From IMG/VR virus record IMGVR_UViG_2600254997_000022: DNA of 20,766 nucleotides; one strand, given 5' to 3'. The notes below the pieces were generated by a model. That model did not search any database, was not told the origin of the DNA, and worked only from the letters and a program-made list of their open reading frames with translations. How positions within the stretch are numbered: position 1 is the first letter of the stretch; each line of letters opens with the position of its first letter. A program made the translations under genes and the position numbers. The DNA is from a virus (lineage: Duplodnaviria; Heunggongvirae; Uroviricota; Caudoviricetes). Of this stretch, positions 1,844 to 20,766 are shown one piece after another.

Positions 1844-2890
1844 TTAGCTTTAATATCGAGTGGTGGATAGTCCATGGACAAGCTGATGGGCGCACTCGAC
1901 GAAAACGATGCGCCAGGCGGACTGTGTCGCTCATAAACCGGGAGTTGGCCAGAGGACTTAGTTGTCCTTTGCAATTCTGCAGGTTCGCACGTGAAAGTAG
2001 CCAAAACCCTGCGAACCTGAGTGCAAACCTGCAACTGCGAACCACTGAGGTGGCCTCTCATAGCTGGTGGTCATACTGGATATTAATCAGGCCTGCCACA
2101 ACCATAACAATCCATAACAGGCGCATCGCACTAACAATTACTAATAGGTCCGCTCGCAACACTAATTTTGACTAAGCCTGAACGCAATGCTCAGAAAGAA
2201 CGAAGAATGGAATGAATCGTACCATCATGTTGCTCCATGATTTTTACGTTCAAGACAGTTGCTTAATCTCGCCTCGCAATTCAGCCCCCTTGCCGCGATC
2301 TTGCCGTTATCGAGAAGTCTTTCTCCTTTCGGTTAATGCTATCGGTCTTCATATTACCAGCAGCATACGCCATCCGATTATTTCGATGCTACGCGCGCGT
2401 ACTTGTCGCAAAATACCAGGCAAAGGCCAGATTCAGAACGTCGTGATAACCACCAGCACAACATGAGAGGTCATGTAACGCTATTTATCACACCAGATAT
2501 ATGTGATTGGTGTACCCGCATAAAACATCGTCATAGCGCGTCCTGTGCGCATATAAGCCGATAATCAACACATCACCATCACTCTGTCTTATGTAGAGAA
2601 CAGTTTTATGGTACTCCCCTCCATTGTGTGCGTACTGGTCGGACGCAGTTGCAAAACTTTTTGCAACTGATAACCCTCGCGCGCGTACTTGTCTCGACAT
2701 TGGTGTTTTGCTGTGGCAGTGATATCAGAAAAATCTTCCTGTTTCACATAAAGCGGATATGCGCGTACTGTAACGGCCCCATCAACTGGGAGCGGATTTG
2801 AAATCCCGCCCCGAATGTGTAGGCAATGTCACTTAACGTTTGTCGCATACCTTCCAGAAAAAGCGATTCATGAATAATAGGGGCATGAAT

Positions 2891-2913: not shown

Positions 2914-3612
2914 TTAATTTGGTGCTTTAGGGTCAACATTAAAAGTTATATCACCTTCTGTATTTTTCCCGGCATAGCTAGCGGCTATTCTCGCCAACCC
3001 TTTGTAATCAGCAATTCCATCAGACTGTTGCGAGACGACTGAGCTACCAACTTTCCATAACATATTAATCTGCCTATTATTGAGATAAGCCTTGGCATCA
3101 AACGACTGGAGTATCACCCCTGCGCCGTAGAACGTGTCCGTCACAGTTGTGTTATACGCGCCAGTAATTCCATAAGTAGGCGTATAAACTGTTGTTGCCG
3201 TTCCAGTGGTATTAGCTGTACCGTAGCCACCACCATAACTATTGAACGTGGTGTTCGAGTTTCCGTACGTTGTTGCTGAGCTCACACCAGTTTGCCCGTA
3301 TATTGGGATGGTTACATTACGAGTATTTGAAATGGCCCCGCTTCTCAAAAAGTTCAAGAGAATTACCTGGTCAGCCAATTTTTCATCTTTAACTTGTGTA
3401 TATCCTTGGCTTGATAAACTGGCGGCTACTACCGTAGCTATTTGAGTGTATTCAATCTGTTTGGTGTTCCAAAGTTCTTGGCTTGCGGGGATGATCAAGA
3501 ACTTCTTACCGACAGATTGCCCGGAGGATAAAGCATTGACCGTTACTAACGGTTTTTGTACGCATCCAGCCAATAATGACAGGGATAATATTAAAAGAAG
3601 ATTTTTAATCAT
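2914..3612 (-). CDS. Lipoprotein of unknown function (232 aa), moron-like
   Basis: Signal peptide MIKNLLLILSLSLLAG|C with an L-A-G-C lipobox and Val at +2. AGGTGA RBS. The central region is G/T/N/Y-rich and low in complexity. The gene looks AT-richer than its neighbours by eye and is flanked by its own candidate promoter and a hairpin. Confidence 0.85.
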   Translation of the reverse strand: MIKNLLLILSLSLLAGCVQKPLVTVNALSSGQSVGKKFLIIPASQELWNTKQIEYTQIATVVAASLSSQGYTQVKDEKLADQVILLNFLRSGAISNTRNVTIPIYGQTGVSSATTYGNSNTTFNSYGGGYGTANTTGTATTVYTPTYGITGAYNTTVTDTFYGAGVILQSFDAKAYLNNRQINMLWKVGSSVVSQQSDGIADYKGLARIAASYAGKNTEGDITFNVDPKAPN

Positions 3613-3762
3613 GATAATCTCACCTAAGAATTGCGTGGTTATAAATTATCATCACTGTAAGCGAATGTAAGCCACAGGCTCGTAATGTGATATGGAATTT
3701 TTATAGTTGGCTCAATATCAGTATGCCGTCCTTGGCTATTATGGTTTTGTTAGTTAGAGCGT

Positions 3763-4716
3763 CTATTCCCATTCGCTAACATCTTTCATGCCACTGAGGG
3801 TAGCTACAATCCCGGCCCTTGTCAGTTTCACGAATTCTTCAGCCCCAACGGCATCACGAATTGCTTTCATGGCAATTTTATTGGCCGAAAATCGTTTCTC
3901 TGCTGCGGCGATCGCTGCTGGTGATGCCCCTGCGCGCACTGCTTTTGTAGCTTCCTGAACGGCTTTCTCTATCGCATATCGACCACTTCTTGTCGCCCCA
4001 ATCTTAGCCACAGTATTTCTCAGTGCGCCACCAGCAACCAAACCACTAATCGAACCAATTACACCACCGCCAAAGCCTCCAGCGATCGCACCTGACTGTT
4101 GAACTCCGTTCATGATCACACCGACGATCTTTGGAAGGCCTGAATCGAGCGTTTTGAGAGCCTCAGTTGTTCTTCCCGTGCGCTCTACGTATCGCTGCGG
4201 TCTGGTGCTGGCTTTAGCGAGTACACCGAACTCTTTCATCATTCTACCGAGATCTGGCACATGACGACTGATGGCGTTTACATTCTGCTGGGTCATGAGC
4301 TTGGCAAAATACTGGATACCAGACTCTTCACCGATTCCTCCCTTCTCTCCCTGCGCCACAGCATGCTGAAGAATAGATGCTATTGCTGGTTGGCGTTCTG
4401 CTTCCGGCAGCGCGGAGATAAGGCGGTGAAAAGCTCCCGTTCCAGTGTTTGCGGATGCCTTAAGCGTATCGGCACCTTTTCTTACCATAGCGTCTGATGC
4501 GAGATCTCGACCAAAAAACAGATTCGGCATTTTGTTTGGCGATAATGTAACTTTTAGAGAGATCGTTAGCTTTCTGCCATTCTGTGAGGAAGTTTCCTTT
4601 TTCAGCCATGATGCGCATGTCATCAGTGATAGCTCTGCGCATTTCTCCGGCAATCCGGGCGGCATTGGCCTTACCTGCCCGGGTGTTTGCTTGTTCAGCA
4701 TCAGCAAACTTAGCAC
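3763..4716 (-). pseudogene. C-terminal fragment of the large ejection/internal-virion protein, in a shifted frame
   Basis: It overlaps the 4460-5818 ORF by 257 nt in another frame. Protein-like sequence begins only around KMPNLFFGRDLASDAMVRKG. Contains a glycine-zipper segment, GAIAGGFGGGVIGSISGLVAGGAL. Confidence 0.6.
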
Positions 4717-5918
4717 GCCATGCCTTCATCCCGTCGAAGGTTATGCCGCCACCTTGGTTGTTGGCAGCCTGAAACTGTTTCATCTCCGGGCTGAGTGGAA
4801 CATTGGCTGCTTTTTCTGCTTGGACGACAGCCATCCCATTACTCATTTTCATCCTTTCGCGTGGCATCGTGCTTCGCAGTTCTGCCCATGCCATATTCTC
4901 TGCTGTTTTCATATCACTGAGGCTCGCGATGATGCGCTCTTTAATTGCTGCGCTTTTTTCTGATGCGCTTCCAGACTCAGCACCGAAATCAGACAACTGC
5001 TTATTCAACTTTGAGGATATTTCATTGAAGGCCGTAAGGTGAGCATCCTGAACATTCCCAGGAGTTGATGCCAGAACACCTTCTGCTTGGGCAATTCCAC
5101 GACTACCTGAGCGCATTCCGGGCGTCAGGGTGTTGATATTAATACCAGTGATTTTCGCCGCCTTAGCGACATCATCTCTGACGTTTGATGCCTGCGATGC
5201 GATATGCTCTCGGCCTACGGCAGAACGCGCTGCTTTCGATACATCATTGGCGGTTTCCAGAGTATTTGCTGCCCCTAACACATGGCCTGATTGATTTGTA
5301 TTACTCCGCAATACATCTCGCATTACGTCACTGGCTGTCTGTCCGCTCTTTATTAAAGCGCGTGCTCCTAGCGATCCTGCTAGGCCAATACCTGTCTCTT
5401 TTGCTAGGTCTTCTGGGCTGATCTGCCCGTTCTTTTGGGCGTTCACCAATGTACCTGGCAGGTTTTCTGCCAACATACTAGCCACCTTTGTGGCCGCACG
5501 TTCAGCACGTGGAGCGTTGGCAACGGAAGAAGCTGTGGTAGCTGCCTTTCCTGCACCTAATCCTGTAATAAGGTAAGGTGCTAGCTGCTCACCAGCCTGC
5601 GCGTATGGATCTGTAGGTTGGTCTACTGGGCGAAAGACAGGTGATATGGGCGTGTATGTGCCATCACCCACACCAAGCTTCTGAGCTGCCCATGCTCCGG
5701 CTGATTGCGCCGCATTGACTACCCCCACGCCTGCGTCCATTACATCAAACGGTATATTAGCAATCCCTCTGGCCATCTGCTCTGGCGCAGCTTTCAGTCC
5801 TGGCGAAAGATATTCCATCTCAGGATTAAGGTTAGACTTGGCTATTTGCTGCTGCGGTTCCCCGGCATTTTCATCGGCGAGAAACTGAGCTCTTTTCTGC
5901 TCCCATGAACTGGCTGTT
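4460..5918 (-). pseudogene. Middle fragment of the large ejection/internal-virion protein
   Basis: The 452-aa ORF (4460-5818) stays open upstream to the IS629 junction at 5918 (TASSWEQKRAQFLADENAGEPQQQIAKSNLNPE-MEYLS). This frame joins the 7230-7804 fragment once the IS and one GTT copy are removed. Confidence 0.7.
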
Positions 5919-5972: not shown

Positions 5973-6299
5973 ATGACTAAAAATACTCGTTTTTCCCCCG
6001 AAGTCCGTCAGAGGGCGATTCGTATGGTTCTGGAAAGTCAGGGCGAATATGACTCACAGTGGGCGGCAATTTGTTCCATTGCCCCAAAGATTGGCTGTAC
6101 ACCGGAGACTCTGCGTGTCTGGGTACGCCAGCATGAGCGGGATACCGGAGGCGGTGATGGCGGGCTCACCACCGCTGAACGTCAGCGTCTGAAAGAGCTG
6201 GAACGTGAAAATCGTGAACTGCGCCGCAGTAACGATATCCTTCGCCAGGCTTCCGCTTATTTTGCGAAGGCGGAGTTCGACCGCCTCTGGAAAAAGTGA
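5973..6299 (+). CDS. IS629 OrfA (108 aa, HTH)
   Basis: ORF track. The stop overlaps the orfB ATG (TGATG), and GGAAAAAG just upstream sits where IS3-family -1 frameshifting occurs. Confidence 0.92.
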
Positions 6300-7187
6300 T
6301 GCCACTGCTGGATAAGCTGCGTAAGCTGTACGGGGTCGGACCGGTATGCAGTGAACTACATATTGCCCCGTCAACGTATTACCACTGTCAGCAACAGCGA
6401 CATCATCCTGATAAACGCAGTGCCCGTGCGCAGCGCGATGACTGGCTGAAGAAAGAGATACTGCGCGTATACGATGGGAATCATCAGGTATACGGTGTGC
6501 GTAAAGTCTGGAGTCAGTTGTTACGGGAAGGAATCAGGGTAGCCAGATGTACAGTGGCGCGCCTCATGGCGGTTATGGGACTTGCCGGTGTTCTCCGGGG
6601 TAAAAAGGTCCGTACGACCATCAGCCGGAAAGCCGTTGCCGCAGGCGACCGCGTAAACCGTCAGTTCGTGGCAGAACGACCTGACCAGCTGTGGGTGGCT
6701 GATTTTACTTACGTCAGCACATGGCAGGGCTTCGTCTATGTGGCGTTCATCATTGATGTGTTTGCCGGATACATTGTGGGGTGGCGGGTCTCGATCGTCC
6801 ATGGAGACGACATTCGTGCTGGATGCACTGGAGCAGGCGTTATGGGCCCGTCGACCGTCCGGCACGGTCCATCACAGTGATAAAGGTTCTCAGTATGTAT
6901 CGCTGGCCTACACACAGCGGCTTAAGGAAGCCGGATTACTGGCATCAACAGGAAGTACAGGCGACTCGTATGACAACGCGATGGCGGAGAGCATCAATGG
7001 TCTTTACAAAGCGGAGGTAATACACCGTAAGAGCTGGAAAAACCGTGCAGAAGTGGAACTGGCCACACTCACGTGGGTGGACTGGTATAACAATCGACGA
7101 TTGCTGGAAAGGCTGGGCCATACTCCTCCGGCAGAAGCAGAAAAAGCTTATTATGCTTCCATCGGAAACGATGATCTGGCAGCCTGA
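6296..7187 (+). pseudogene. IS629 OrfB transposase (DDE), split by a frameshift
   Basis: Two overlapping ORFs (6296-6880 and 6738-7187) each carry transposase sequence: ...GYIVGWRVS in one frame, then SSMETTFVLDALEQALW... in the next. The switch is near 6790-6800 (gtctcgAtcgtcc). As I recall, intact IS629 OrfB is a single ~296-aa ORF. Confidence 0.75.
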
Positions 7188-7229
7188 GTTCACAGATAAA
7201 ACACTCTCCAGGAAACCCGGGGCGGTTCA

Positions 7230-7804
7230 GTTGGTAGTCCTGCTTCTATGTTCTTAAATTGCTGACGTTTTGCTTCCCATGCAGAAATATCTCCCACCTG
7301 AGAGATTTCTTTATCAAGCTCTGAGTAGTCAGGCTGCTGAAGATTGCGATGTTGACTGGTTTGTGCAAACTGCAAGATTTCACTGTCATCAGGGATTATT
7401 CCGGCATCTGCAAATTTACTTACGTAATTAGCCGTTTCATCTGGCAGTGTAGATTTACCGTTTCTGACGGCATTAATACGAGCATAGCCAGAATTATACC
7501 CAGCCAATGCCATACCAATATCACCAAATCGCTTCATTCCTTTATTGAGATGGTTTGCTGCGATATCCATTTGCTTTTCAAATGGCAGTGAGCGCGGATC
7601 AGTTCCACGATAACCAGCATCACTCATTACTGAGGGCATCAGTTGAGCAAATCCTCTAGCTCCTTTCGGTGACTCGGCACTTCCGTTACCACTAGATTCA
7701 TTGCCAACTAATGTTTCCATCGTCCCTGATGGGAAACCATATTTTTCATCGAGATGACGGGAATAGGCTTTCTGTTTTTCTGTCAGTTGTGCCATCATTG
7801 CCAT
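7230..7804 (-). pseudogene. N-terminal fragment of the large ejection/internal-virion protein: SLT lytic transglycosylase domain
   Basis: Family-1 lytic transglycosylase motifs: catalytic E-S (GNESSGN), GARGFAQLMP, and AGYNSGY. The annotated 204-aa ORF (7190-7804) ends with 13 residues (from the junction codon) read from the IS629 end (..TEPPRVSWRVFYL). Confidence 0.85.
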
Positions 7805-9114
7805 CCCTTAAGTTTTGCCTGATAGTAACTTTCCGGCAGATAGCCATGTGCGGTCACATAATCCTTAACCAGTGAAGGATCCTGCAACAGCATTTTGGTA
7901 TCAGTTTCTTCGTCCTTTGATTTGGTTACAGGAATACCGAGCCCGGCAATCTGTCGTTTCTGCATTCGAATAATTACGTCCTGCGCTTTATTCAACTCTC
8001 GCAAAAATGCCTCATTGCTGGTTGCTGACTTAATGCCATTTTGAGATTGCATAAGGGCAGCCCTTTCCCCTTCGGTTGGGTTAGAGCCAAAAGTCCCTTT
8101 GAGGCTAGGCAGAATAACCTTTAGGTTGTATTCATCAGCTTTGGCGCGTAGGCTTCGTGTGTCTTCTGCTACATCAGGAAGGAATCCAAACCCCAGCGTC
8201 AGGGGGTTATAGTTCTGCGAGCGGGTAACGGCCGAAGGATGTTTCCCTACAATTCCCGCCAGTTCATGACCCACTTCAAGCGCAGAGTTCAAGGAGTCGA
8301 TGTTACCTGCAACAGTATTAATTTTATCGTTCATCTTCTCCACTTTCGCCTGCTGTACTTTGCTCAGTTCAGCATTGAGCTTGTCTCTCTCGATGTCATT
8401 TTGAGCACGTCCAAGTCGTGCTTTCAGAACCATTTCTCTCGTGCGTAGTTGGTTATCGGATAGGACTTTGAACTGCTCCATATCGAGACGCCGATTACCC
8501 AGTTCCGCATTAACCTGAGCATTATATGCAGATGTATCTGCGTTCTGCTGTGCAATGCTCTGCCCTTGCTGCTTCTCTTGAACACTAAAGTAACTATTTG
8601 GATCAGCATGGAGGTGGATGAGGTCAGTGATTCTGTTGAATTCCTGTGGGTCATTCTGCCAAGACTGATAAACCTCTTCAGCAGGAAGACCAAATCGCTG
8701 TAATACTGGATTTGCCTGCTGAATGGCCTTCTGCATGGTCAGTGGATCTCCAGTTTGTGACGCAAGACGCAGATTCATGGCAGCGTCAGCGGTCTGTCGA
8801 TTTTGCTCAGCATCAATGAATCCCATCTGTTTTTGAGAATCAGCCATAAACTGGGGATACTGGGCCATTAACTTCTGCACGCCAACACGATCATTATTAG
8901 CTACCGCACTACCCAACCGTGCCTGATATTCTTTTAGCTGCTGGGAAATTTGCGCCTGCTGATTAATCTCAGCAACGCCTCTTAGCCCCTGTAGCGCCAT
9001 TAAACCTACGTTTGGCTGCTGCTGATACTGCACAGGCTGAGGAACGGAAGAACGAGGAGCATTATCATTTTGCGGTGCCATGCTAGGCAGCCCGCCAAGT
9101 TGCCATGTCGCCAT
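7795..9114 (-). CDS. Ejection / DNA-transfer-like protein (439 aa), in the P22 gp20 position
   Basis: Q/N/A-rich with predicted coiled-coil character. The start overlaps the upstream stop (TAATG) and the stop overlaps the downstream start by 10 nt. Size and position parallel P22 gp20 (~470 aa). Homology was not verified. Confidence 0.6.
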   Translation of the reverse strand: MATWQLGGLPSMAPQNDNAPRSSVPQPVQYQQQPNVGLMALQGLRGVAEINQQAQISQQLKEYQARLGSAVANNDRVGVQKLMAQYPQFMADSQKQMGFIDAEQNRQTADAAMNLRLASQTGDPLTMQKAIQQANPVLQRFGLPAEEVYQSWQNDPQEFNRITDLIHLHADPNSYFSVQEKQQGQSIAQQNADTSAYNAQVNAELGNRRLDMEQFKVLSDNQLRTREMVLKARLGRAQNDIERDKLNAELSKVQQAKVEKMNDKINTVAGNIDSLNSALEVGHELAGIVGKHPSAVTRSQNYNPLTLGFGFLPDVAEDTRSLRAKADEYNLKVILPSLKGTFGSNPTEGERAALMQSQNGIKSATSNEAFLRELNKAQDVIIRMQKRQIAGLGIPVTKSKDEETDTKMLLQDPSLVKDYVTAHGYLPESYYQAKLKGWQ

Positions 9115-9791
9115 TAGAATCCAAGCCCCCCAACAAGACCAATAAGCCCACCACCAATAGCCCCGGCGACATTACCTATACCCGGAACAACGGAACCAAG
9201 TTGCGCACCCGCTAAAGCGCCTGATGCCGCCCCACCAATACCACGCGCAAGACTGGATGGCTGCTGCGCCTGACCTGCACGAATAGCGCCAAGCCCCTGC
9301 AAGAGTTGTCCGGTATTATTGGCGTAGTTTTGCCCTGCTGTTGCCTGCCCTGATGCCGCATTCATCCCGACATTTAGCAGGTTTCCATAATTTTGCATTT
9401 GCCCACTGAGCCAATTGTTATAAAGCATGGGCGCAATGGAAGATAACTGGTTACTGGTAGCTGTTGAGCCAAGCCCCCCGGTAGCTTCTGCTGAGACAAG
9501 GTTCTGATAACGGGCCTGATCTGCCTGTGTTTTATATAAACCAGAACCAAAGAAATCATTCGCGGCTTTATTCTGCCCTTCCAGAGTCATCAGTCCTTGT
9601 AGTTGTTGTAAAGCAGGCAATCCGACTTCTGCATACGGCTTGAGATTATTCATCACCGTATTCCACTGCTCGCGCTGCAAATCAATTGCCTGCTGCTGGG
9701 CCTTCGCCTGAGCTTTAGAGGCACCACCATCACCGCCTTTTTCGTATACGGCACGATTGAGATATTTATGAGCTATATGGGTAATTAACAT
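9114..9791 (-). CDS. Ejection / DNA-transfer-like protein (225 aa), in the P22 gp7 position
   Basis: Q/G/A/N-rich, with a C-terminal glycine-zipper hydrophobic tail (GIGGAASGALAGAQLGSVVPGIGNVAGAIGGGLIGLVGGLGF). Size parallels P22 gp7 (~229 aa). Translationally coupled on both sides. Confidence 0.6.
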   Translation of the reverse strand: MLITHIAHKYLNRAVYEKGGDGGASKAQAKAQQQAIDLQREQWNTVMNNLKPYAEVGLPALQQLQGLMTLEGQNKAANDFFGSGLYKTQADQARYQNLVSAEATGGLGSTATSNQLSSIAPMLYNNWLSGQMQNYGNLLNVGMNAASGQATAGQNYANNTGQLLQGLGAIRAGQAQQPSSLARGIGGAASGALAGAQLGSVVPGIGNVAGAIGGGLIGLVGGLGF

Positions 9792-10246
9792 TCGCTGAAT
9801 TCCTTATATTGTTGCCGAGTTAACTGATAAAGCATTACGCCGACGGGTTTACCACATCTGATATAAGCATCATCAAGGTGACCAACACGGGTAGCGCCAA
9901 GCAAACGGATAATTGCCCGTCCGTATTTGGTGGTGTCAGGAACCATGGTAATGCTGTTAAGGAATGGTGAGTTTTCGAGAAGCCATTTGCAGAATAATCG
10001 ATGCCCTTGCAGTGCATATTCACCACGGAATCCGGGGTCGTACACCGCATGGCATTCAACAATGTTATGCCAGAAGTTACGCACTTCATGAACGCCAGCC
10101 AGCACCAATCCTTCGTAGATACCGAGATATACCGCATCAGGCTTGATGTAGTACGTGTGCCCCGGCTCAACAATATTTTCGGTATTGCCAGGCTCGTTAA
10201 GAAAGGCCTGTAATCGCACAGGGTTATCAATAAATTTTAGTTCCAT
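9785..10246 (-). CDS. 153-aa protein in the P22 gp14 position, with a weak GNAT-like motif
   Basis: ORF track. First large gene of the coupled block. DPGFRGEYALQGHRLFCKWLLE loosely resembles acetyltransferase motif A. Size parallels P22 gp14 (~160 aa). Function is uncertain. Confidence 0.5.
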   Translation of the reverse strand: MELKFIDNPVRLQAFLNEPGNTENIVEPGHTYYIKPDAVYLGIYEGLVLAGVHEVRNFWHNIVECHAVYDPGFRGEYALQGHRLFCKWLLENSPFLNSITMVPDTTKYGRAIIRLLGATRVGHLDDAYIRCGKPVGVMLYQLTRQQYKEFSEC

Positions 10247-16143: not shown

Positions 16144-16261
16144 GGGAATTCTTCCCACCACCGGAGCTGCGAAACTCGCTGGTGGTGGACTGAACAGAGT
16201 TCGCAGTACCGGCGTACAAGGAAACCGGCCAGCCTTTCGGCTGCCCTGTCCAGCCCACCAT
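16144..16261 (-). ncRNA. Candidate c4 / CI-type antisense (immunity) RNA or cis leader
   Basis: Dense stems on the reverse strand: CAGCC-GAAA-GGCTG, GTAC-GCCG-GTAC, CCACCACC...GGTGGTGG, CTGCGAA...TTCGCAG. Two segments are complementary to the contiguous RBS region GTACAAGGAGGCTGCC of the downstream ORF: GGCAGCC (+ coordinates 16239-16245) and TCCTTGTAC (+ coordinates 16214-16222). Confidence 0.5.
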
Positions 16262-16281
16262 AATTTTACAAGCGACGCGGA

Positions 16282-16788
16282 TTATAACCACATCACCGAA
16301 AAAAGTGTGAGTCTGGCTAACGGCACAGAAAAAGACGCTCGGCGCGTCCATGTGTCGCCTCGTACATTTCCGGGCTTGCGAAACCCGGCACCCGTTTTAT
16401 GAGGTGCCTTATAACCATAAACCGTGTTGCCGCATAACGGCAAGCTCTTTTTTATGGACTCCGAAAACTCACTATTGGAAGAACCAGAAGCACAGTACAT
16501 CGCGCTCATTTCGTTAACGTCACGCGCGTAGACGAATGTTTTTGTGGAGTCACTACACGAGCAGAACAGGTGATCTACGACCAGAAATTCTCTGGCGCAG
16601 CCGCTGACCTTCTCAACGCTAACACCATCGACCGTAATTTCTGACATAGTTAAGGCATCCGCTCCTACCACCAGCAAATGATAAACTTTGCTTGTATCTG
16701 CTATATTAATGTCTGACTTTGCTGTCATATTGCTGGATTTTGGCGACATACCAGCCAGTGAAAATATCTTCTTCTGGGCGGTTAGCAT
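16282..16788 (-). CDS. Hypothetical protein (168 aa)
   Basis: GGAGG RBS 9 nt upstream. The ATG overlaps the upstream stop (ATGCTAA). The C-terminal ~40 aa look low-complexity, so the true end is uncertain. Confidence 0.5.
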
Positions 16789-16964
16789 TTGTTAACCTCC
16801 GTGAACTCCTTCATGAAACGTGCCAGCGGTTGTACGCATGGCGATTGATACCCGTCGCGATAAAACGTCACTCGGTTGTGAGACACGCTTTCGACAGTAA
16901 CGAGTGCTCCGTGGGCATCTTTGTAGCGTTTTTGGGGTTGTGGTGTTCCTGTCGGTTTAAACAT
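16782..16964 (-). CDS. Small protein (60 aa from MFKPTGTPQ), possibly DUF4222-like
   Basis: GGAGG RBS. The ATG overlaps the antirepressor stop (ATGTTTAA). The KRYKDAHGALVTVESVSHNRVTFYRDGYQSPCVQP pattern recalls DUF4222 phage proteins, from memory. Confidence 0.5.
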   Translation of the reverse strand: MFKPTGTPQPQKRYKDAHGALVTVESVSHNRVTFYRDGYQSPCVQPLARFMKEFTEVNKC

Positions 16965-17790
16965 GGACCGCCTCCAGACGCTTGGCGAGCCAGCGTTGCG
17001 ACAGGCGGGTGAGTTCTCCTTTGCGCTGCTCATATTCCATGCCCATATCAATTAACGTGATATTGGTGCTTTCGAGATATGAGAGGTGCTCAAGCTGTTC
17101 TGCGTTCATATGGTCGCGAGGTTCGCCAGAATAGCCATTTATCCGCGCCCACTGCTTGGCAGTTAGCCCACCAAGAACGATACGAGAAATCATATTGCTC
17201 TCGTTTGTGTAGTGGTGTTGCTGCGTCGTTTTCCCCTGCTCGGCACGGGCCATATTCAGCGCATCGCACATTGGCTTAAAGTTGTTTGCGGCACTGATAC
17301 GGGCTTTTAGCTGGCGACGATAGCGGGCGGCGATTTCAGGCACGGTACGCTGTAATTCTTCCTCGCACTGGATGAAATAACGGCGGATAGCGCGACCCTG
17401 ATCATTGCGTTCGATCATTGCCAGTTCTTTCGCCATTCCGACACTTAACAGATAGTCTTTGCCGGGTCTGCCAGACTGCTTAATCTTGCTGTAAGCCGCG
17501 CCATTCGGGCTTTTCCCCAAATTTGGGGAAATTGTTTTATGGACTGAGTAATCGTGCCCAATGGTGAAGTCATATTCAGAGATGCGATCAGTGATCCATG
17601 TAGAGAAGTCTTTTCCCACGCCCAACGCTTTGTGTAACGCTTTTGCGCTAACAATATTGGTTTCACGCCCACCGATATGACCAGGAATAACCGGGACAAT
17701 TGCGGCAAATTCATTACCGTTAATTGTGCCCAGAGAGGCGTTCAGATGAGGGGCAGCCTCAGAAATTAATCTGCTTTTTTCGATGTTCAT
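16957..17790 (-). CDS. Phage antirepressor, AntA N-terminal domain plus KilAC (ANT) C-terminal domain (277 aa)
   Basis: VSAKALHKALGVGKDFSTWITDRISEYDFTIGHDY is AntA-like. GRPGKDYLLSVGMAKELAMIERNDQGRAIRRYFI is the KilAC/ANT signature. Confidence 0.8.
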   Translation of the reverse strand: MNIEKSRLISEAAPHLNASLGTINGNEFAAIVPVIPGHIGGRETNIVSAKALHKALGVGKDFSTWITDRISEYDFTIGHDYSVHKTISPNLGKSPNGAAYSKIKQSGRPGKDYLLSVGMAKELAMIERNDQGRAIRRYFIQCEEELQRTVPEIAARYRRQLKARISAANNFKPMCDALNMARAEQGKTTQQHHYTNESNMISRIVLGGLTAKQWARINGYSGEPRDHMNAEQLEHLSYLESTNITLIDMGMEYEQRKGELTRLSQRWLAKRLEAVHV

Positions 17791-17802: not shown

Positions 17803-18234
17803 TTAGGCGGCGTTAAACGCGTCCGGGTAGAGTTTCAGAATGTCGGCAATTTCCTGCTGAGAAAGTCCGTTGTGATCATTTATGTTCGCAAGATGGTTAA
17901 CATGAGTGATCACTTTCAGAACATCACCACGGCAGGAGAAACGGTAGCGAAGGTGTGTTCCGATACCATCAGGATTCTTTTCGTCGATACGCTCCAGAGT
18001 GATTCCAAGCTGGCGTTCTAACTCTGTTGCATAGTTACGACCAGATGACAGACGGCAGTAGCGAAGAATGTCATTTTCTGTCCATCCCTCTATACCAGTA
18101 CGCAGCATATAGACTCTGGCACGATGCTTTTTCGGTGTGCGCTTTGGTGCTTGAAGGGATTTTGTAAGGGGCGTAACATCAGATACGCGAATATCTGAAT
18201 TAGCCGCCTGTAATGGGCGGTTTTTCTTTTCCAT
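17803..18234 (-). CDS. Hypothetical protein (143 aa)
   Basis: ORF track. The start overlaps the alpA stop (TGATG). Basic N-terminus (KRTPKKHRAR). No motif recognised. Confidence 0.6.
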   Translation of the reverse strand: MEKKNRPLQAANSDIRVSDVTPLTKSLQAPKRTPKKHRARVYMLRTGIEGWTENDILRYCRLSSGRNYATELERQLGITLERIDEKNPDGIGTHLRYRFSCRGDVLKVITHVNHLANINDHNGLSQQEIADILKLYPDAFNAA

Positions 18235-18437
18235 CAGGCCACCTTCCCGCGGCGTTCTGCCAGCCAGTTGTGAATCTCAACCGCATCAAACGCAGTTATT
18301 TTTTCTCCCAGCTTTACCGGACGTGGTAGTGAACCGTTTCTTACTTTACGGTCGATGGTGGATACACTAACGCCCAGCAATTCAGCCAGGCGAAAGCGTC
18401 TGATATAGCCTTTTGTAGGGATAGTGTCGATGTTCAT
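18234..18437 (-). CDS. alpA: AlpA-family transcriptional regulator / excisionase-type HTH (67 aa)
   Basis: YIRRFRLAELLGVSVSTIDRKVRNGSLPRPVKLGEKITAFDAVEIHNWL matches the AlpA/HTH_17 pattern. Typical position near a P4-family integrase. Confidence 0.85.
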   Translation of the reverse strand: MNIDTIPTKGYIRRFRLAELLGVSVSTIDRKVRNGSLPRPVKLGEKITAFDAVEIHNWLAERRGKVA

Positions 18438-18504
18438 GATTCCCGTAACCTCTTAGCGATAGTTGTTGCTTCGTTACGAGAAATCTAGCTGTATAGATAT
18501 ACAA

Positions 18505-18532
18505 TGAAAAGGTACTGTAATTTTGCAGTACC
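18505..18532 (-). terminator. Intrinsic terminator after the int-orf316 unit
   Basis: Stem ggtactg (18511-18517) / cagtacc (18526-18532) with an 8-nt loop. On the reverse strand it is followed by TTTTC. Lies 12 nt past the stop at 18544. Confidence 0.7.
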
Positions 18533-18543
18533 TCTATAGTAAG

Positions 18544-19494
18544 TTAACTATCCACTTTGCCATTTGCCGCAGATCGTAGATGTTTAAGAATTACATCTTC
18601 ATTAGTTATCATAAGTGGTGGAACTTCGTCTAAATGACGAACAAGACAGTCACGCCACTTCTCAGGGCTTATTTCTTTCCTTTCTCCCCTGCATTCATTT
18701 GGATACTTACTAAGTATATAAATTGCAGATTTTAATAGTTTCTCCCTATTGACTGCGTACCGTTCGGCACGTTTATTAACTTTTAGCGTATTTATATCAT
18801 TGGATAACTTGTTTGCGGATGGTTTGTGCATGGGTCTGTCATAAATATATTTTCCTCCATTTATAAGAAGATTGTATTCATAGTCAGTTATATACATTTT
18901 GTTTCGGCTTATTTCATACCAGCCGTCAATATAAAAAGCTCCGATTTCATAATTATTCGATTTGCTAAACTCGTCACATCTCGGAGGCATCAGTTCGCAT
19001 ACAGAGATCTCCCAATCATCCCATTCTGATAGCTCCCGCTCATCGTTATCTATGAACGCAGGCGGAATTGCTAATAGACCGCTCCATCTTTCGATATCTC
19101 TTTCATCCTTCCCAACATTATATCGCTCTATAACTGAGAAATGTTCTGATTTGTATGAAAACCTCATAAAATACATATAGTTATCGCTATTTTTATAATC
19201 AGGTGATGATAAGCCATATGATTCGAGATTATCTGCCTTATTGCTCAGATCAAGGAGATAATTCTCATGTGCTGCTTTTGTATCTATATGAAAAATACTA
19301 TCTGTTTCAACTTTAAGTAATTCTGGCTCGGCATCTTCATTTTTTGGGTAATGGTAAAACAATTCAATAGGTGGAATTTTTATACATATTTCTAAAACCC
19401 CAATTGCTGCATAGTGTATTAAATCGGATACTTCACATCCGGCCAGTTTGGCTGCTTTATCCAAAGAATAATATTTATGCGCAGGTAATTTCAT
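18544..19494 (-). CDS. AT-rich orphan protein (316 aa) with an HTH-like N-terminus; function unknown
   Basis: GAGGAAAT RBS. The start is 18 nt after the int stop with no terminator between them. YSLDKAAKLAGCEVSDLIHYAAIGVLE looks like an HTH. No catalytic motif recognised. Markedly AT-richer by eye than int and alpA. Confidence 0.8.
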   Translation of the reverse strand: MKLPAHKYYSLDKAAKLAGCEVSDLIHYAAIGVLEICIKIPPIELFYHYPKNEDAEPELLKVETDSIFHIDTKAAHENYLLDLSNKADNLESYGLSSPDYKNSDNYMYFMRFSYKSEHFSVIERYNVGKDERDIERWSGLLAIPPAFIDNDERELSEWDDWEISVCELMPPRCDEFSKSNNYEIGAFYIDGWYEISRNKMYITDYEYNLLINGGKYIYDRPMHKPSANKLSNDINTLKVNKRAERYAVNREKLLKSAIYILSKYPNECRGERKEISPEKWRDCLVRHLDEVPPLMITNEDVILKHLRSAANGKVDS

Positions 19495-19512
19495 TATGAA
19501 TATTTCCTCTCA

Positions 19513-20766
19513 TCATGCTCTGATTGGCGTTACGTTGTAGTCTTTTCCGCTTTCCAGTGCCACCAGCAGATCTGCCCACTGTGCCAGTGCTGCTTTACGC
19601 TCATCAAAATACTGATGACGGTTATAAATCCCCTCTACGCCCTTAATGCGATGATTGAGGCATCGTTCCGCCACGACAGGATCAACACCCAATGCTGCTA
19701 AATGAGTACGTGCGGTGCGTCGGAAGTCGTGAATCGTGAAATTAGGCACATCCGGCATTTCGGCGCGAACCTTAGCCAGTGCTACGGGTAAAGTGCTTTC
19801 CTGAATATGTGGGATCATTCTGTTTTGCATCTTCCTGGCCGGAAGCACCCATGCGCTATTACATGAAAAGGTGTGTAGCTCTCTCAACCATTCAACGGCT
19901 GGGGAAGGTAGAGGTATATCAATAGGGTCTCCGTTTTTGCTGCGTTCTTCCGGCAAATGCCATACCGCACCATCTAAATCAAACTCTTCCCATCGTGCGG
20001 CGCATAACTCCATCTTACGAACGCATAGTGCCAGCAATAGTTTAAATGTCAGTTCGTTTTGGCGGCTGAATCCTTTTGCGGTGCGCATAGCCTCGAATAG
20101 CCTGATAAGCTCATCGCGAGTTAGCCAACGGTCGCGGGAAACCTCTTTACCACCAGCATCAGATACTTCAAACGCTGAACAAGGGTTTATCTCCAGAGCG
20201 TGGCGTTTTATCCCATAGTCAAAGATACGGCGTGTCCAGCGTAATACATCTGTTGCTATCGTTGGTGCTCCTCGGTCAACGATACCTTTCAACATGTCGT
20301 CAATGTGGCGTGGCTTAACGTCCTCTACCTTCATATGCCCAATGCAGGGGTTAATATCCTTATCAATTCTCCGGCGAAGGATATCGGGATGTTTCCATCT
20401 CGGAAGTATCTGGCGCTCGAAGTATTCGGAGGCCAGATCTGAAACACGCATGGCGTTTTTCTCAGCCTCCATTTTTGCCAGTGCTTCAGCTTTTCGTTCC
20501 TGTTTCTCTGCTGCTACGTCATAGCCAAGAGCAACTCTGGCTGACAGCTCTTTCGCTGTTTCTCTGGCTTTTGATAGTGACAGTTCGGAGTAAGAGCCTA
20601 TAACCATAGCCCGCTGCTTTCCTGCGAGCTTATAGCGGAATCGCCAGAACGGGACTGTGTAGTTTTTGGGGTAGCAAATATAAAGGCCGTTGCCGTCTGC
20701 CTTGCCATCAAATCTGTCTCCCGCCTTTATCCATGCGCGGATCTGCATATCTGTGAGTTTTGGCAT
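19513..20766 (-). CDS. Tyrosine recombinase / integrase, P4 (CP4-57/IntS-like) family (417 aa)
   Basis: N-terminal MPKLTDMQIRAWIKAGDRF..GNGLYI is DUF4102-type. The catalytic region contains HDFRRTARTHL and LNHRIKGVEGIYNRHQY. The ATG is the last three bases of the window. Confidence 0.93.
   Translation of the reverse strand: MPKLTDMQIRAWIKAGDRFDGKADGNGLYICYPKNYTVPFWRFRYKLAGKQRAMVIGSYSELSLSKARETAKELSARVALGYDVAAEKQERKAEALAKMEAEKNAMRVSDLASEYFERQILPRWKHPDILRRRIDKDINPCIGHMKVEDVKPRHIDDMLKGIVDRGAPTIATDVLRWTRRIFDYGIKRHALEINPCSAFEVSDAGGKEVSRDRWLTRDELIRLFEAMRTAKGFSRQNELTFKLLLALCVRKMELCAARWEEFDLDGAVWHLPEERSKNGDPIDIPLPSPAVEWLRELHTFSCNSAWVLPARKMQNRMIPHIQESTLPVALAKVRAEMPDVPNFTIHDFRRTARTHLAALGVDPVVAERCLNHRIKGVEGIYNRHQYFDERKAALAQWADLLVALESGKDYNVTPIRA

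What the first reader, a model, noticed from the sequence alone, without database searches (positions are those of the whole stretch)
18544..19494. AT-rich 316-aa orphan between integrase and alpA: candidate hotspot cargo (defence) or Stl-like sensor-repressor
**Seen in the sequence.** The gene is conspicuously AT-richer than its neighbours. It starts 18 nt after int with no terminator between them, and ends at a clean terminator. It has an HTH-like N-terminus and a long C-terminal region with no motif I recognise.

**Established knowledge.** In P4-like satellites the integrase-proximal locus is a hotspot that swaps anti-phage systems. In SaPI/PICI-type islands the integrase-proximal gene is often a highly divergent HTH master repressor that senses a helper-phage protein.

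**Inference.** Either role would be of interest, and the sequence gives no family assignment.
Basis: partly seen in the sequence, partly recalled or inferred. Interest (0 to 1): 0.6.

Follow-up and report, generated by a model that had tools for sequence, protein, structure and literature searches.

The report
Swappable orphan gene upstream of alpA
The AT-rich 316-aa gene is real and fills a never-empty, recombination-swapped slot between the integrase and the master activator alpA of an E. coli phage satellite; it belongs to a large unannotated family whose function is untested, most plausibly recognition of a fast-evolving phage partner.

Summary
ORF 18544-19494 (-) has GC 0.36, against 0.49-0.50 for int and alpA. 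It starts 18 nt after int and ends at a stable hairpin with a U-run. No curated family matches it (Pfam, NCBIfam, PADLOC, PDB).

It is not a singleton. About 670 50%-identity clusters are related. Sampled members come only from Enterobacterales satellites, and every one lies directly upstream of alpA.

The protein has an AlpA/Xis-like N-terminus that lacks AlpA's basic residues. It has an acidic beta-rich middle with a hypervariable stretch (residues ~46-110). It ends in an ~75-aa helical domain under strong purifying selection.

In 336 E. coli genomes with this backbone the slot is never empty. It holds at least six alternative genes, three of them from this family. The cassettes move independently of int and alpA.

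No enzymatic domain was found. My best reading (0.42) is a constitutively expressed binder of a fast-evolving phage protein that acts as interference or immunity cargo. The main rival (0.25) is a helper-phage sensor that controls alpA. Function is untested.

Interest is moderate.

The parts
18544..19494 (-). ORF 'X', 316 aa (identical to E. coli hypothetical protein WP_016231264.1). It is the present occupant of the int-alpA slot.
19360..19494 (-). Residues 1-45: AlpA/Xis-like winged-helix N-terminus with net charge 0. AlpA's R/K/R positions in the recognition helix are replaced by H/Y/A.
   Evidence: direct reading of the alignment
19165..19359 (-). Residues 46-110: hypervariable stretch that includes the predicted helix 72-92. 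Mean pairwise identity in the family is 0.18. Eleven of the 12 differences between two otherwise identical alleles fall at residues 72-90.
18850..19164 (-). [not shown]
18775..18849 (-). Residues 216-240: linker predicted to be disordered (pLDDT below 50 for 221-240).
18547..18774 (-). Residues 241-316: conserved helical C-domain (AERxAxNRE...SKYPxECRG...SPEKW...ITNEDVILKHLR). Mean identity is 0.73, synonymous sites are saturated, and pN is 0.05-0.30. It is mildly basic and gives only weak FF / winged-helix-like fold matches.
19495..19512 (-). 18-nt int-X spacer carrying the Shine-Dalgarno sequence GAGAGG. It stands where the ~95-nt leader with the int-alpA RNA motif (RF02996) lies in most related islands.
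18504..18535 (-). Intrinsic-terminator-like hairpin plus U-run directly after the X stop codon.
18438..18485 (-). alpA leader hairpin (CUCGUAAC-N23-GUUACGGG) whose 3' arm abuts the alpA Shine-Dalgarno sequence. Its 5' base marks the right boundary of the swappable cassette.
18234..18437 (-). alpA (PF05930), the satellite's master activator. It is the invariant downstream neighbour of every X homologue examined.
19513..20766 (-). Tyrosine integrase (Arm-DNA-bind_3, Phage_int_M, Phage_integrase). The left breakpoint of the window-type cassette lies in its last ~5 codons.

Best explanation
X is the current occupant of a dedicated, always-filled cargo slot. The slot lies between int and the alpA leader of an EcCIMP1-like Gram-negative phage-inducible chromosomal island (PICI) inserted next to yicC.

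Shown:
- The slot's contents are exchanged by recombination at fixed boundaries, independently of int and alpA.
- X belongs to a large satellite-restricted family.
- The family has a fast-evolving N-terminal and middle part, with a hypervariable helix, and a strongly conserved small helical C-domain.
- No catalytic domain is detectable.

Inferred:
- X is transcribed with int in the quiescent island.
- It is kept from switching on alpA by its own terminator and by the hairpin that covers alpA's ribosome-binding site.
- It works as a non-enzymatic binder. The hypervariable surface recognises a rapidly evolving phage (or rival-element) protein. The conserved C-domain couples that recognition to a conserved host or satellite partner.
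- The net effect is phage interference or immunity whose specificity differs between alleles.
For: Slot behaviour:
- 336 of 5426 complete E. coli genomes carry this backbone, and none has an empty slot.
- Occupants are the window type (41 genomes), two other X types (76 and 37), a 216-aa protein (111), DUF6387 (3) and a 293-aa family.
- Islands with different occupants share identical primase and AlpA proteins.

Boundaries:
- The right break is exactly at the alpA-leader hairpin.
- The left break is at the slot gene's ATG or in the last int codons.

Uncoupled history:
- Window versus L027: dS is 1.28 for int and 0.87 for alpA, but 0.03 for X.
- Window versus L030: dS is 0.05 for int and 0.06 for alpA, but 0.35 for X.

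Diversification:
- omega for the X middle part is 0.4-1.1 in close pairs.
- omega is 0.02-0.09 for int and 0.13-0.27 for the C-domain.
- Substitutions cluster in residues 72-90.

Composition: every slot gene is AT-rich, in all genera sampled.

Insulation: a terminator and an RBS-covering hairpin in the alpA leader, seen in most lineages.

Prior from the literature: six of eight randomly chosen unknown genes in P4 hotspots protected against phages (PMC13586616), and PICIs carry immune systems in accessory regions (PMC11364771).
Against: - No match to any PADLOC model, and no recognisable effector domain.
- All 13 homologue contexts sampled, plus the E. coli alleles, sit directly upstream of alpA. 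None was found in prophages, plasmids or defence islands. Free-standing defence cargo usually roams more widely.
- Co-transcription with int is inferred only. The int promoter lies outside the window.
- No phage phenotype has been measured.
Confidence: 0.42

Rival explanations
1. X is a helper-phage sensor that controls satellite induction. This is Stl-like in logic but not in family. X would hold alpA expression or AlpA/Int activity in check through its AlpA-like N-terminus or its C-domain. It would release that hold when its hypervariable surface binds a helper-phage protein. Alleles would then set helper specificity.
For: - The link to alpA is invariant across islands with different integrases, attachment sites and replication modules. 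These modules include DUF927, D5/Pox_D5 and Toprim_3+DUF3631 primases.
- The slot is never empty and has hyperdivergent or unrelated occupants, as with SaPI Stl.
- The N-terminus resembles AlpA/Xis.
- The C-domain is basic and winged-helix-like.
- The cassette carries its own DNA just upstream of the alpA leader. In the window this includes the palindrome TGTATAtcTATACA, a possible operator.
- How helper phages switch on alpA in Gram-negative PICIs is not settled in the papers read (PMC6092414 abstract only; PMC11773190; PMC10111431).
Against: - No Pfam HTH is detected.
- The recognition-helix positions that are basic in AlpA are H/Y/A in X. The N-domain has net charge 0 and the whole protein has pI 5.3.
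- X is co-directional with alpA and separated from it by a terminator, not divergently transcribed over shared operators.
- EcCIMP1, a PICI with the same gene set (int, alpA, antirepressor, ash, primase, PerC), is helper-inducible with only a tiny unrelated ORF in this slot (PMC11773190).
- Occupants with no HTH-like N-terminus, DUF6387 and the 216-aa protein, fill the same slot.
- The same AlpA protein coexists with different C-domain subtypes.
Confidence: 0.25
2. X is an establishment or counter-defence factor. It would be made together with integrase on entry into a new cell and protect the incoming satellite from host or prophage defences. Alleles would diversify against different defence proteins.
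For: - Tight coupling to int, with an 18-nt gap and no terminator.
- An acidic middle domain, net charge -18 over 170 residues.
- Rapid diversification.
- No enzymatic domain.
- PMC13586616 notes that anti-defence functions also diversify fast.
Against: - The charge density is far below that of classical DNA mimics such as Ocr and ArdA. That comparison rests on my own knowledge.
- There is no similarity to known anti-restriction families in Pfam.
- In two island types the homologue is not next to int.
Confidence: 0.1
3. X is ordinary accessory or selfish cargo with no role in phage-satellite conflict, for example a host-physiology regulator. On this view its variability reflects relaxed constraint and hitch-hiking in a recombination-prone site.
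For: - No functional assignment of any kind.
- omega near 1 in some close pairs is compatible with relaxed constraint.
Against: - The C-domain is under strong purifying selection across genera.
- Full-length alleles are maintained in hundreds of genomes. The exact window protein is seen on 310 contigs.
- The slot is never empty.
- Amino-acid changes are concentrated in one helix rather than spread along the protein.
Confidence: 0.1

Closest known systems
Defence/accessory hotspots of phage satellites (P4-like satellites: Rousset 2022, PMC9122126; PMC13586616. PICIs: Fillol-Salom 2022 as cited in PMC11364771)
   Same: - A slot bounded by conserved core sequence.
- It is almost never empty.
- Occupants are AT-rich, unrelated to each other, and swapped by recombination independently of the backbone.
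- Many occupants have no annotation.
   Different: - The position differs. This slot lies between int and alpA. The P4 hotspot lies elsewhere, and PMC13586616 describes PICI defence genes between the att site and int.
- The dominant occupant family is confined to this slot.
- It has no match in PADLOC.
- It shows domain-level mosaicism, with a constant C-domain.
SaPI Stl master repressors
   Same: - Integrase-proximal.
- Always present.
- Extremely divergent between islands.
- Expected to read a helper-phage protein.
   Different: - Stl is divergently transcribed from the lytic operon and binds the shared intergenic operators through a canonical basic HTH (from my own knowledge).
- X is co-directional and followed by a terminator.
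- X has no Pfam HTH and is acidic.
- X conserves its C-terminus rather than its HTH.
- Gram-negative PICIs are described as AlpA-activated (PMC10111431, PMC11773190).
AlpA / Xis / Vis (HTH_17, MerR-like winged helix; PF05930, PF12728)
   Same: The first ~45 residues align in register with AlpA and weakly resemble Xis/MerR folds. The gene sits beside alpA.
   Different: - Five times longer.
- The basic DNA-contact positions are not conserved.
- No Pfam hit for the window protein.
EcCIMP1 (E. coli PICI mobilised by the P22-like phage Kapi1; PMC11773190)
   Same: Same island gene set: int, slot gene, alpA, antA antirepressor, ash, DUF927 primase, PerC, and P22-type late genes.
   Different: The EcCIMP1 slot holds a small unrelated ORF (EcCIMP1_002), and the island uses a different attachment site (next to proA/yagU).
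int-alpA RNA motif (Rfam RF02996)
   Same: It marks the same int-alpA interval. It is present between int and the slot gene in most related islands (49-63 bits).
   Different: It is absent from this window (no hit even at E<=10). The window-type cassette has replaced it together with the last int codons.

Membership tests
Satellite hotspot cargo (defence-type accessory slot) | The slot is flanked by conserved core sequence and holds unrelated alternative genes in closely related elements. | tested here: met
   At least six occupants sit on the same int/alpA/primase backbone, and the breakpoints are fixed.
Satellite hotspot cargo (defence-type accessory slot) | The slot is rarely or never empty. 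| tested here: met
   None of 336 E. coli genomes matches an artificial empty-slot junction over at least 80% of its length.
Satellite hotspot cargo (defence-type accessory slot) | The cargo's evolutionary history is uncoupled from the backbone. | tested here: met
   X dS is 0.03 where int dS is 1.28. Conversely, X dS is 0.35 where int dS is 0.05.
Satellite hotspot cargo (defence-type accessory slot) | The occupant matches a known or candidate defence family. | tested here: not met
   PADLOC gives 0 hits for X at E<=10. No family recurs among 131 relatives. One marginal PDC-S31 hit for another allele was not reproduced. DefenseFinder FS_* models were not available.
Satellite hotspot cargo (defence-type accessory slot) | The occupant confers protection against phage infection. 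| not testable with these tools
   This needs plating assays.
SaPI Stl-type master repressor | Integrase-proximal, always present, and hyperdivergent between islands. | tested here: met
SaPI Stl-type master repressor | Divergently transcribed from the lytic/regulatory operon, with operators in the shared intergenic region. | tested here: not met
   X is on the same strand as alpA, and a terminator lies between them.
SaPI Stl-type master repressor | A canonical DNA-binding HTH. | tested here: not met
   No Pfam HTH at E<=1. The N-domain has net charge 0 and pI 6.7, and the basic positions of AlpA's helix are replaced.
SaPI Stl-type master repressor | Binding of a helper-phage protein relieves repression. 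| not testable with these tools
   This needs genetics or interaction assays.
AlpA/Xis HTH_17 family | A match to PF05930 or PF12728 above threshold. | tested here: not met
   No hit for X. One of 131 relatives matches at E 0.005.
AlpA/Xis HTH_17 family | A winged-helix fold of the Xis/MerR type. | tested here: inconclusive
   [not shown]
Gram-negative PICI (the element that carries X) | int, alpA and primase are co-directional, phage structural and lysis modules are absent, and the size is ~10-20 kb at a specific attachment site. | tested here: met
   The window carries int, alpA, antA and a DUF927 primase, with only P22 ejection-protein genes as late genes. The island lies between dinD and yicC in complete genomes. 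The layout matches PMC10111431 and PMC11773190.
int-alpA RNA (RF02996) | A covariance-model hit between int and alpA. | tested here: not met
   Present in L002, L008 and L011. Absent from the window at the gathering score and at E<=10.

The most novel reading that the evidence does not exclude
The X family and its non-homologous slot-mates would be the missing helper-phage sensors of AlpA-type Gram-negative satellites. Each allele would bind a different helper protein through the hypervariable helix. Through the conserved C-domain it would then release alpA translation or transcription, which is otherwise locked by the terminator and the RBS-covering leader hairpin. On this reading the int-alpA slot sets helper range, as Stl does in SaPIs, but by an unrelated protein and mechanism.
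Probability: 0.2. Interest if true: 0.8.

Novelty: new variant of a known kind. Interest (0 to 1): 0.52.

Why it matters
Gram-negative PICIs are described as int-alpA-pri elements. Their accessory regions have been reported elsewhere in the element.

This work defines a further slot that is precisely bounded and never empty, sitting immediately upstream of the master activator. Its main occupant is an unannotated family of about 670 clusters with a hypervariable recognition helix and a conserved adaptor-like domain.

Either outcome would be useful.
- If X is a new non-enzymatic anti-phage or interference family, natural allele series are already available for mapping its specificity.
- If X is the sensor that explains how helper phages switch on alpA, it addresses a mechanism left open in the papers read here.

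The locus is small, the alleles are natural swaps on isogenic backbones, and a related island (EcCIMP1/Kapi1) is already genetically tractable. The question is therefore directly testable.

Tried and rejected
- **YfjH of CP4-57.** This 318-aa protein lies between intA and alpA in K-12 and was a recalled lead. It is on the opposite strand and shows no homology by hmmsearch, blastp or hhalign.
- **Other slot occupants as distant X homologues.** By eye, the 216-aa, DUF6387 and 293-aa occupants looked similar to X. hhalign probabilities are 0.2-1.3%, so the idea is rejected.
- **PADLOC PDC-S31.** The L008 allele hit it at E 0.002. The hit was not reproduced in 131 family members and is treated as chance.
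- **C-domain conservation as DNA-level or recent recombination.** Rejected, because synonymous sites are saturated (pS 0.7-1.0) while pN is 0.05-0.30.
- **Phage or plasmid origin.** tblastn found nothing in 50,697 phage records. The only 'plasmid' hit is a 4.9-Mb record, which is chromosome-sized.
- **Structure searches.**
  - BFVD Foldseek gave nothing at E<=0.001.
  - The afdb50 library was not available.
- **Searches with little yield.**
  - A second homologous-protein run with the distant alignment returned almost only known hits.
  - The genome-contig scan confirmed only 4 loci.
- **Literature.**
  - The Fillol-Salom 2022 Cell paper is not held.
  - A search for the DefenseFinder 'FS_' system names returned irrelevant papers.
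  - A search for 'DUF6387' gave two genomic-island papers, which I did not open.
- **EcCIMP1_002.** This slot gene of EcCIMP1 is a small unrelated ORF.

Full report
**1. The observation**

The ORF lies at 18544-19494 on the minus strand and encodes 316 aa. Its GC content is 0.358 (GC3 0.287). The integrase just upstream has GC 0.494, alpA just downstream has 0.500, and the whole window has 0.481.

The int stop codon and the ORF's ATG are 18 nt apart. GAGAGG lies 8 nt before the ATG, and there is no hairpin in the gap.

Directly after the stop codon, a 10-bp hairpin followed by UUUUCAUU folds at -13.6 kcal/mol. Its z-score is -4.5, and none of 200 shuffles folds as well. The simple consensus scanner missed it.

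Pfam, PADLOC and NCBIfam give no hit. PHROGs gives only a marginal N-terminal match. PDB sequence profiles give nothing.

**2. The element**

The window is E. coli DNA. In complete genomes the same sequence is a roughly 16-kb island between dinD and yicC.

The island's gene order is:
- int, X and alpA;
- a PM1773-family gene and an antA antirepressor;
- a C4/isrK RNA module;
- a Zn-ribbon/Toprim/DUF927 primase;
- P22-type ejection-protein genes;
- PerC, in related copies.

This is the Gram-negative PICI layout described in PMC10111431. It is the gene set of EcCIMP1, a PICI mobilised by the P22-like phage Kapi1 (PMC11773190).

**3. The family**

X is not a singleton. A word-indexed search found 61 relatives, all from Enterobacterales. 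A profile search of 1.84 billion cluster representatives found 670 clusters at E<=1e-3, mostly 270-350 aa long. None of 131 diverse members carries a Pfam domain. All names given by sources are 'hypothetical protein'.

Conservation is very uneven. Mean pairwise identity by region is:

| Region | Residues | Mean identity |
|---|---|---|
| N-terminus | 1-45 | 0.38 |
| Hypervariable stretch | 46-110 | 0.18 |
| Beta-rich core | 111-215 | 0.25 |
| Linker | 216-240 | 0.16 |
| C-domain | 241-313 | 0.73 |

Many relatives share only the last 75-125 residues with X, at 50-82% identity. Others keep the N-terminal and middle parts but have a different C-terminus, or carry the C-domain on an unrelated N-terminal part. 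One member has the C-domain twice.

In the C-domain, synonymous sites are saturated (pS 0.7-1.0) while pN is 0.05-0.30. The conservation therefore acts on the protein. It is old, and it is neither a recent recombination tract nor an embedded DNA signal.

**4. Structure**

AlphaFold2 with the family alignment gave mean pLDDT 78.6. The model has four parts:
- a small strand-helix-helix-wing N-terminus (residues 1-45);
- a lower-confidence stretch with a long helix (residues 72-92);
- a confident beta-rich core (to about residue 215);
- a disordered linker (residues 221-240) followed by a helical C-domain.

hhalign places residues 3-43 in register with AlpA residues 3-46, but weakly (E 0.0038, probability 9%). 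In that register AlpA's basic recognition-helix residues (R, K, R) are H, Y and A in X.

The N-domain has net charge 0. The middle part has net charge -18, and the C-domain +4. The family's median pI is 5.1.

I found no catalytic motif or fold. X looks like a binder, not an enzyme.

**5. Context of relatives**

I looked up thirteen different homologues, some very distant. Every one lies directly upstream of alpA on the same strand. The window copy and the other E. coli alleles do the same.

- Most follow an integrase, at three or more different attachment sites.
- Two homologues that share only the C-domain sit in islands with D5/Pox_D5 (P4-alpha-like) primases and have no integrase next to them.
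- One sits in an island with a Toprim_3 plus DUF3631 replication module.

No homologue was found in 50,697 phage records or in true plasmids. All E. coli copies are chromosomal.

**6. The slot in E. coli**

A related int/alpA backbone is present in 336-337 of 5426 complete genomes. An artificial junction that joins the int-side leader directly to the alpA leader is matched over at least 80% of its length in none of them. The slot is therefore never empty.

| Occupant | Genomes | X family? |
|---|---|---|
| Window-type, 316 aa | 41 | yes |
| 321-aa type (L008), same C-domain | 76 | yes |
| 281-aa type (L009), divergent C-domain | 37 | yes |
| 216-aa protein | 111 | no |
| DUF6387 protein | 3 | no |
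| 293-aa family, two 60%-identical forms | not counted | no |

(Sources.) Profile comparisons show no homology between X and the last three occupants.

Islands with different occupants share identical primase and AlpA proteins and the same late genes. Every occupant, in every genus sampled, has 8-14 points lower GC than int and alpA.

**7. Cassette boundaries and history**

The right breakpoint of all cassettes is the 5' base of a hairpin in the alpA leader, about 40 nt before the alpA ATG.

On the left, most cassettes begin at the slot gene's ATG. Upstream of that ATG lies a conserved ~95-nt leader containing the Rfam int-alpA RNA motif (RF02996, 49-63 bits) and a short hairpin over the Shine-Dalgarno sequence. 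The window-type and 216-aa cassettes instead break inside the last ~5 codons of int and have lost that leader. RF02996 is absent from the window even at E<=10.

Divergence is uncoupled between cassette and backbone:

| Comparison | int dS | alpA dS | X dS |
|---|---|---|---|
| Window vs L027 | 1.28 | 0.87 | 0.03 |
| Window vs L030 | 0.05 | 0.06 | 0.35 |

The cassette therefore moves between islands by recombination.

**8. Selection**

Among close window-type alleles, omega for the middle part is 0.4-1.1. It is 0.02-0.09 for int, 0.02-0.11 for alpA and 0.13-0.27 for the C-domain. The counts are small.

Two alleles with identical N-terminus, C-domain and alpA differ at 12 residues, and 11 of them lie at positions 72-90. 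This region is also the most variable and indel-rich part of the family alignment.

A short conversion tract from a divergent allele could produce the same cluster. Even so, this helix is where the alleles differ most.

**9. Interpretation**

The facts shown are a fixed, always-filled and recombining slot, and a satellite-restricted modular family. The family has a hypervariable surface, a constant small helical domain, and no enzyme-like part.

The locus architecture also fits constitutive expression. X is coupled to int, and two features would keep upstream transcription from switching on the master activator. One is X's own terminator. The other is a hairpin covering the alpA ribosome-binding site, found in the window and in 11 of 13 other lineages with unrelated arm sequences (z from -2.2 to -7.2).

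My preferred reading, at 0.42, is a binder that recognises a fast-evolving phage or rival-element protein and causes interference or immunity. Two reports support the prior. Six of eight randomly chosen unknown genes from P4 hotspots protected against phages (PMC13586616). PICIs carry immune systems in accessory regions (PMC11364771).

The main rival, at 0.25, is a helper sensor that controls alpA.
- For it: the strict linkage to alpA in otherwise different islands, and the AlpA-like N-terminus.
- Against it: the missing basic residues, the acidity, the co-directional insulated layout, slot-mates without an HTH, and EcCIMP1 being inducible with only a tiny unrelated ORF in the slot (PMC11773190).

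An establishment or counter-defence role (0.10) and neutral cargo (0.10) are less likely.

**10. Comparison and novelty**

The slot behaves like the defence hotspots of P4-like satellites. It differs in three ways:
- It lies at a different position from those described for P4. PMC13586616 places the PICI defence loci reported earlier between the att site and int.
- Its main occupant matches no known defence family.
- That occupant is confined to this one position.

X is not an Stl-family or AlpA-family member, because defining features were tested and not met. I rate it a new variant of a known kind. Its function is open and directly testable.

Noticed in passing
window 18438-18485 (-); also L002, L003, L004, L006, L010, L011, L013, L015, L031, L033, L034: The alpA 5' leader forms a hairpin whose 3' arm abuts or contains the Shine-Dalgarno sequence and ends 2-9 nt before the ATG. 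The arm sequences are unrelated between lineages (CCCGTAAC/GTTACGGG, CCCCTAAC/GTTAGGGG, CCTGTCATG/CATGACAGG, AACCTTCTG/CAGAAGGTT, ATCCCCC/GGGGGAT, TGCCTCT/AGAGGCA), yet the structure is kept. z-scores run from -2.2 to -7.2 in 11 of 13 lineages, and -3.2 in the window. This looks like translational locking of the satellite's master activator.
   Followed up: partly
L008 2805-2871 (-), L002 7329-7394 (+), L011 4122-4187 (+); absent from window 19495-19512: The Rfam int-alpA RNA motif (RF02996) lies between int and the slot gene in most related islands. The slot gene is inserted between this RNA and alpA. The window-type and 216-aa cassettes have deleted the motif along with the last ~5 int codons.
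   Followed up: yes
L008 ~2785-2810 (-), with equivalents in L002, L010, L023 and L024: Just before the slot gene's ATG, a short hairpin brackets the Shine-Dalgarno sequence AAGGTG. It shows compensatory changes (GCGT/ACGC, ATGC/GCAT, AACGTT/AACGTT, AGCG/CGCT), which suggests translational control of the slot gene. It is not present in the window allele.
   Followed up: no
window 18490-18503 (-): A perfect palindrome, TGTATAtcTATACA, lies between the X terminator and the alpA leader, inside cassette-borne DNA. Similar TGTAT...ATACA palindromes occur at the same place in L008 and L004, but not in L002, L003 or L010. It may be an operator or a promoter element. Chance was not formally excluded.
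   Followed up: no
window 16178-16265 (-) and 16328-16407 (-): C4 antisense RNA (81 bits) and isrK (57 bits) lie just upstream of the antA antirepressor gene (16957-17790). This is a P1/P7-type C4-ant immunity module inside the satellite, as noted for PICI 'Bro zones' in PMC10111431.
   Followed up: no
window 5973-7187 (+): An IS3-family insertion sequence has two overlapping ORFs and an ALIL frameshift pseudoknot (6254-6370, 116 bits). It is inserted among the satellite's late genes next to the SLT-domain gene (7190-7804).
   Followed up: no
window 7190-10246 (-): Genes captured from P22-like phages: DUF2824, gp7, an Inj_translocase (gp20-like) protein and an SLT-domain protein. This points to a P22-like helper, as for EcCIMP1 and Kapi1.
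   Followed up: partly
window 2914-5818 (-): Three ORFs of 232, 317 and 452 aa have no Pfam match. They lie at the far end of the island, where related islands carry different genes, for example an Abi-family protein in L021 at 3824-4786. This looks like a second variable cargo region.
   Followed up: no
window 17803-18234 (-): A 143-aa gene annotated elsewhere as 'PM1773 family protein' starts at the alpA stop codon (ATGA overlap). It accompanies alpA in most related islands and has no known function.
   Followed up: no
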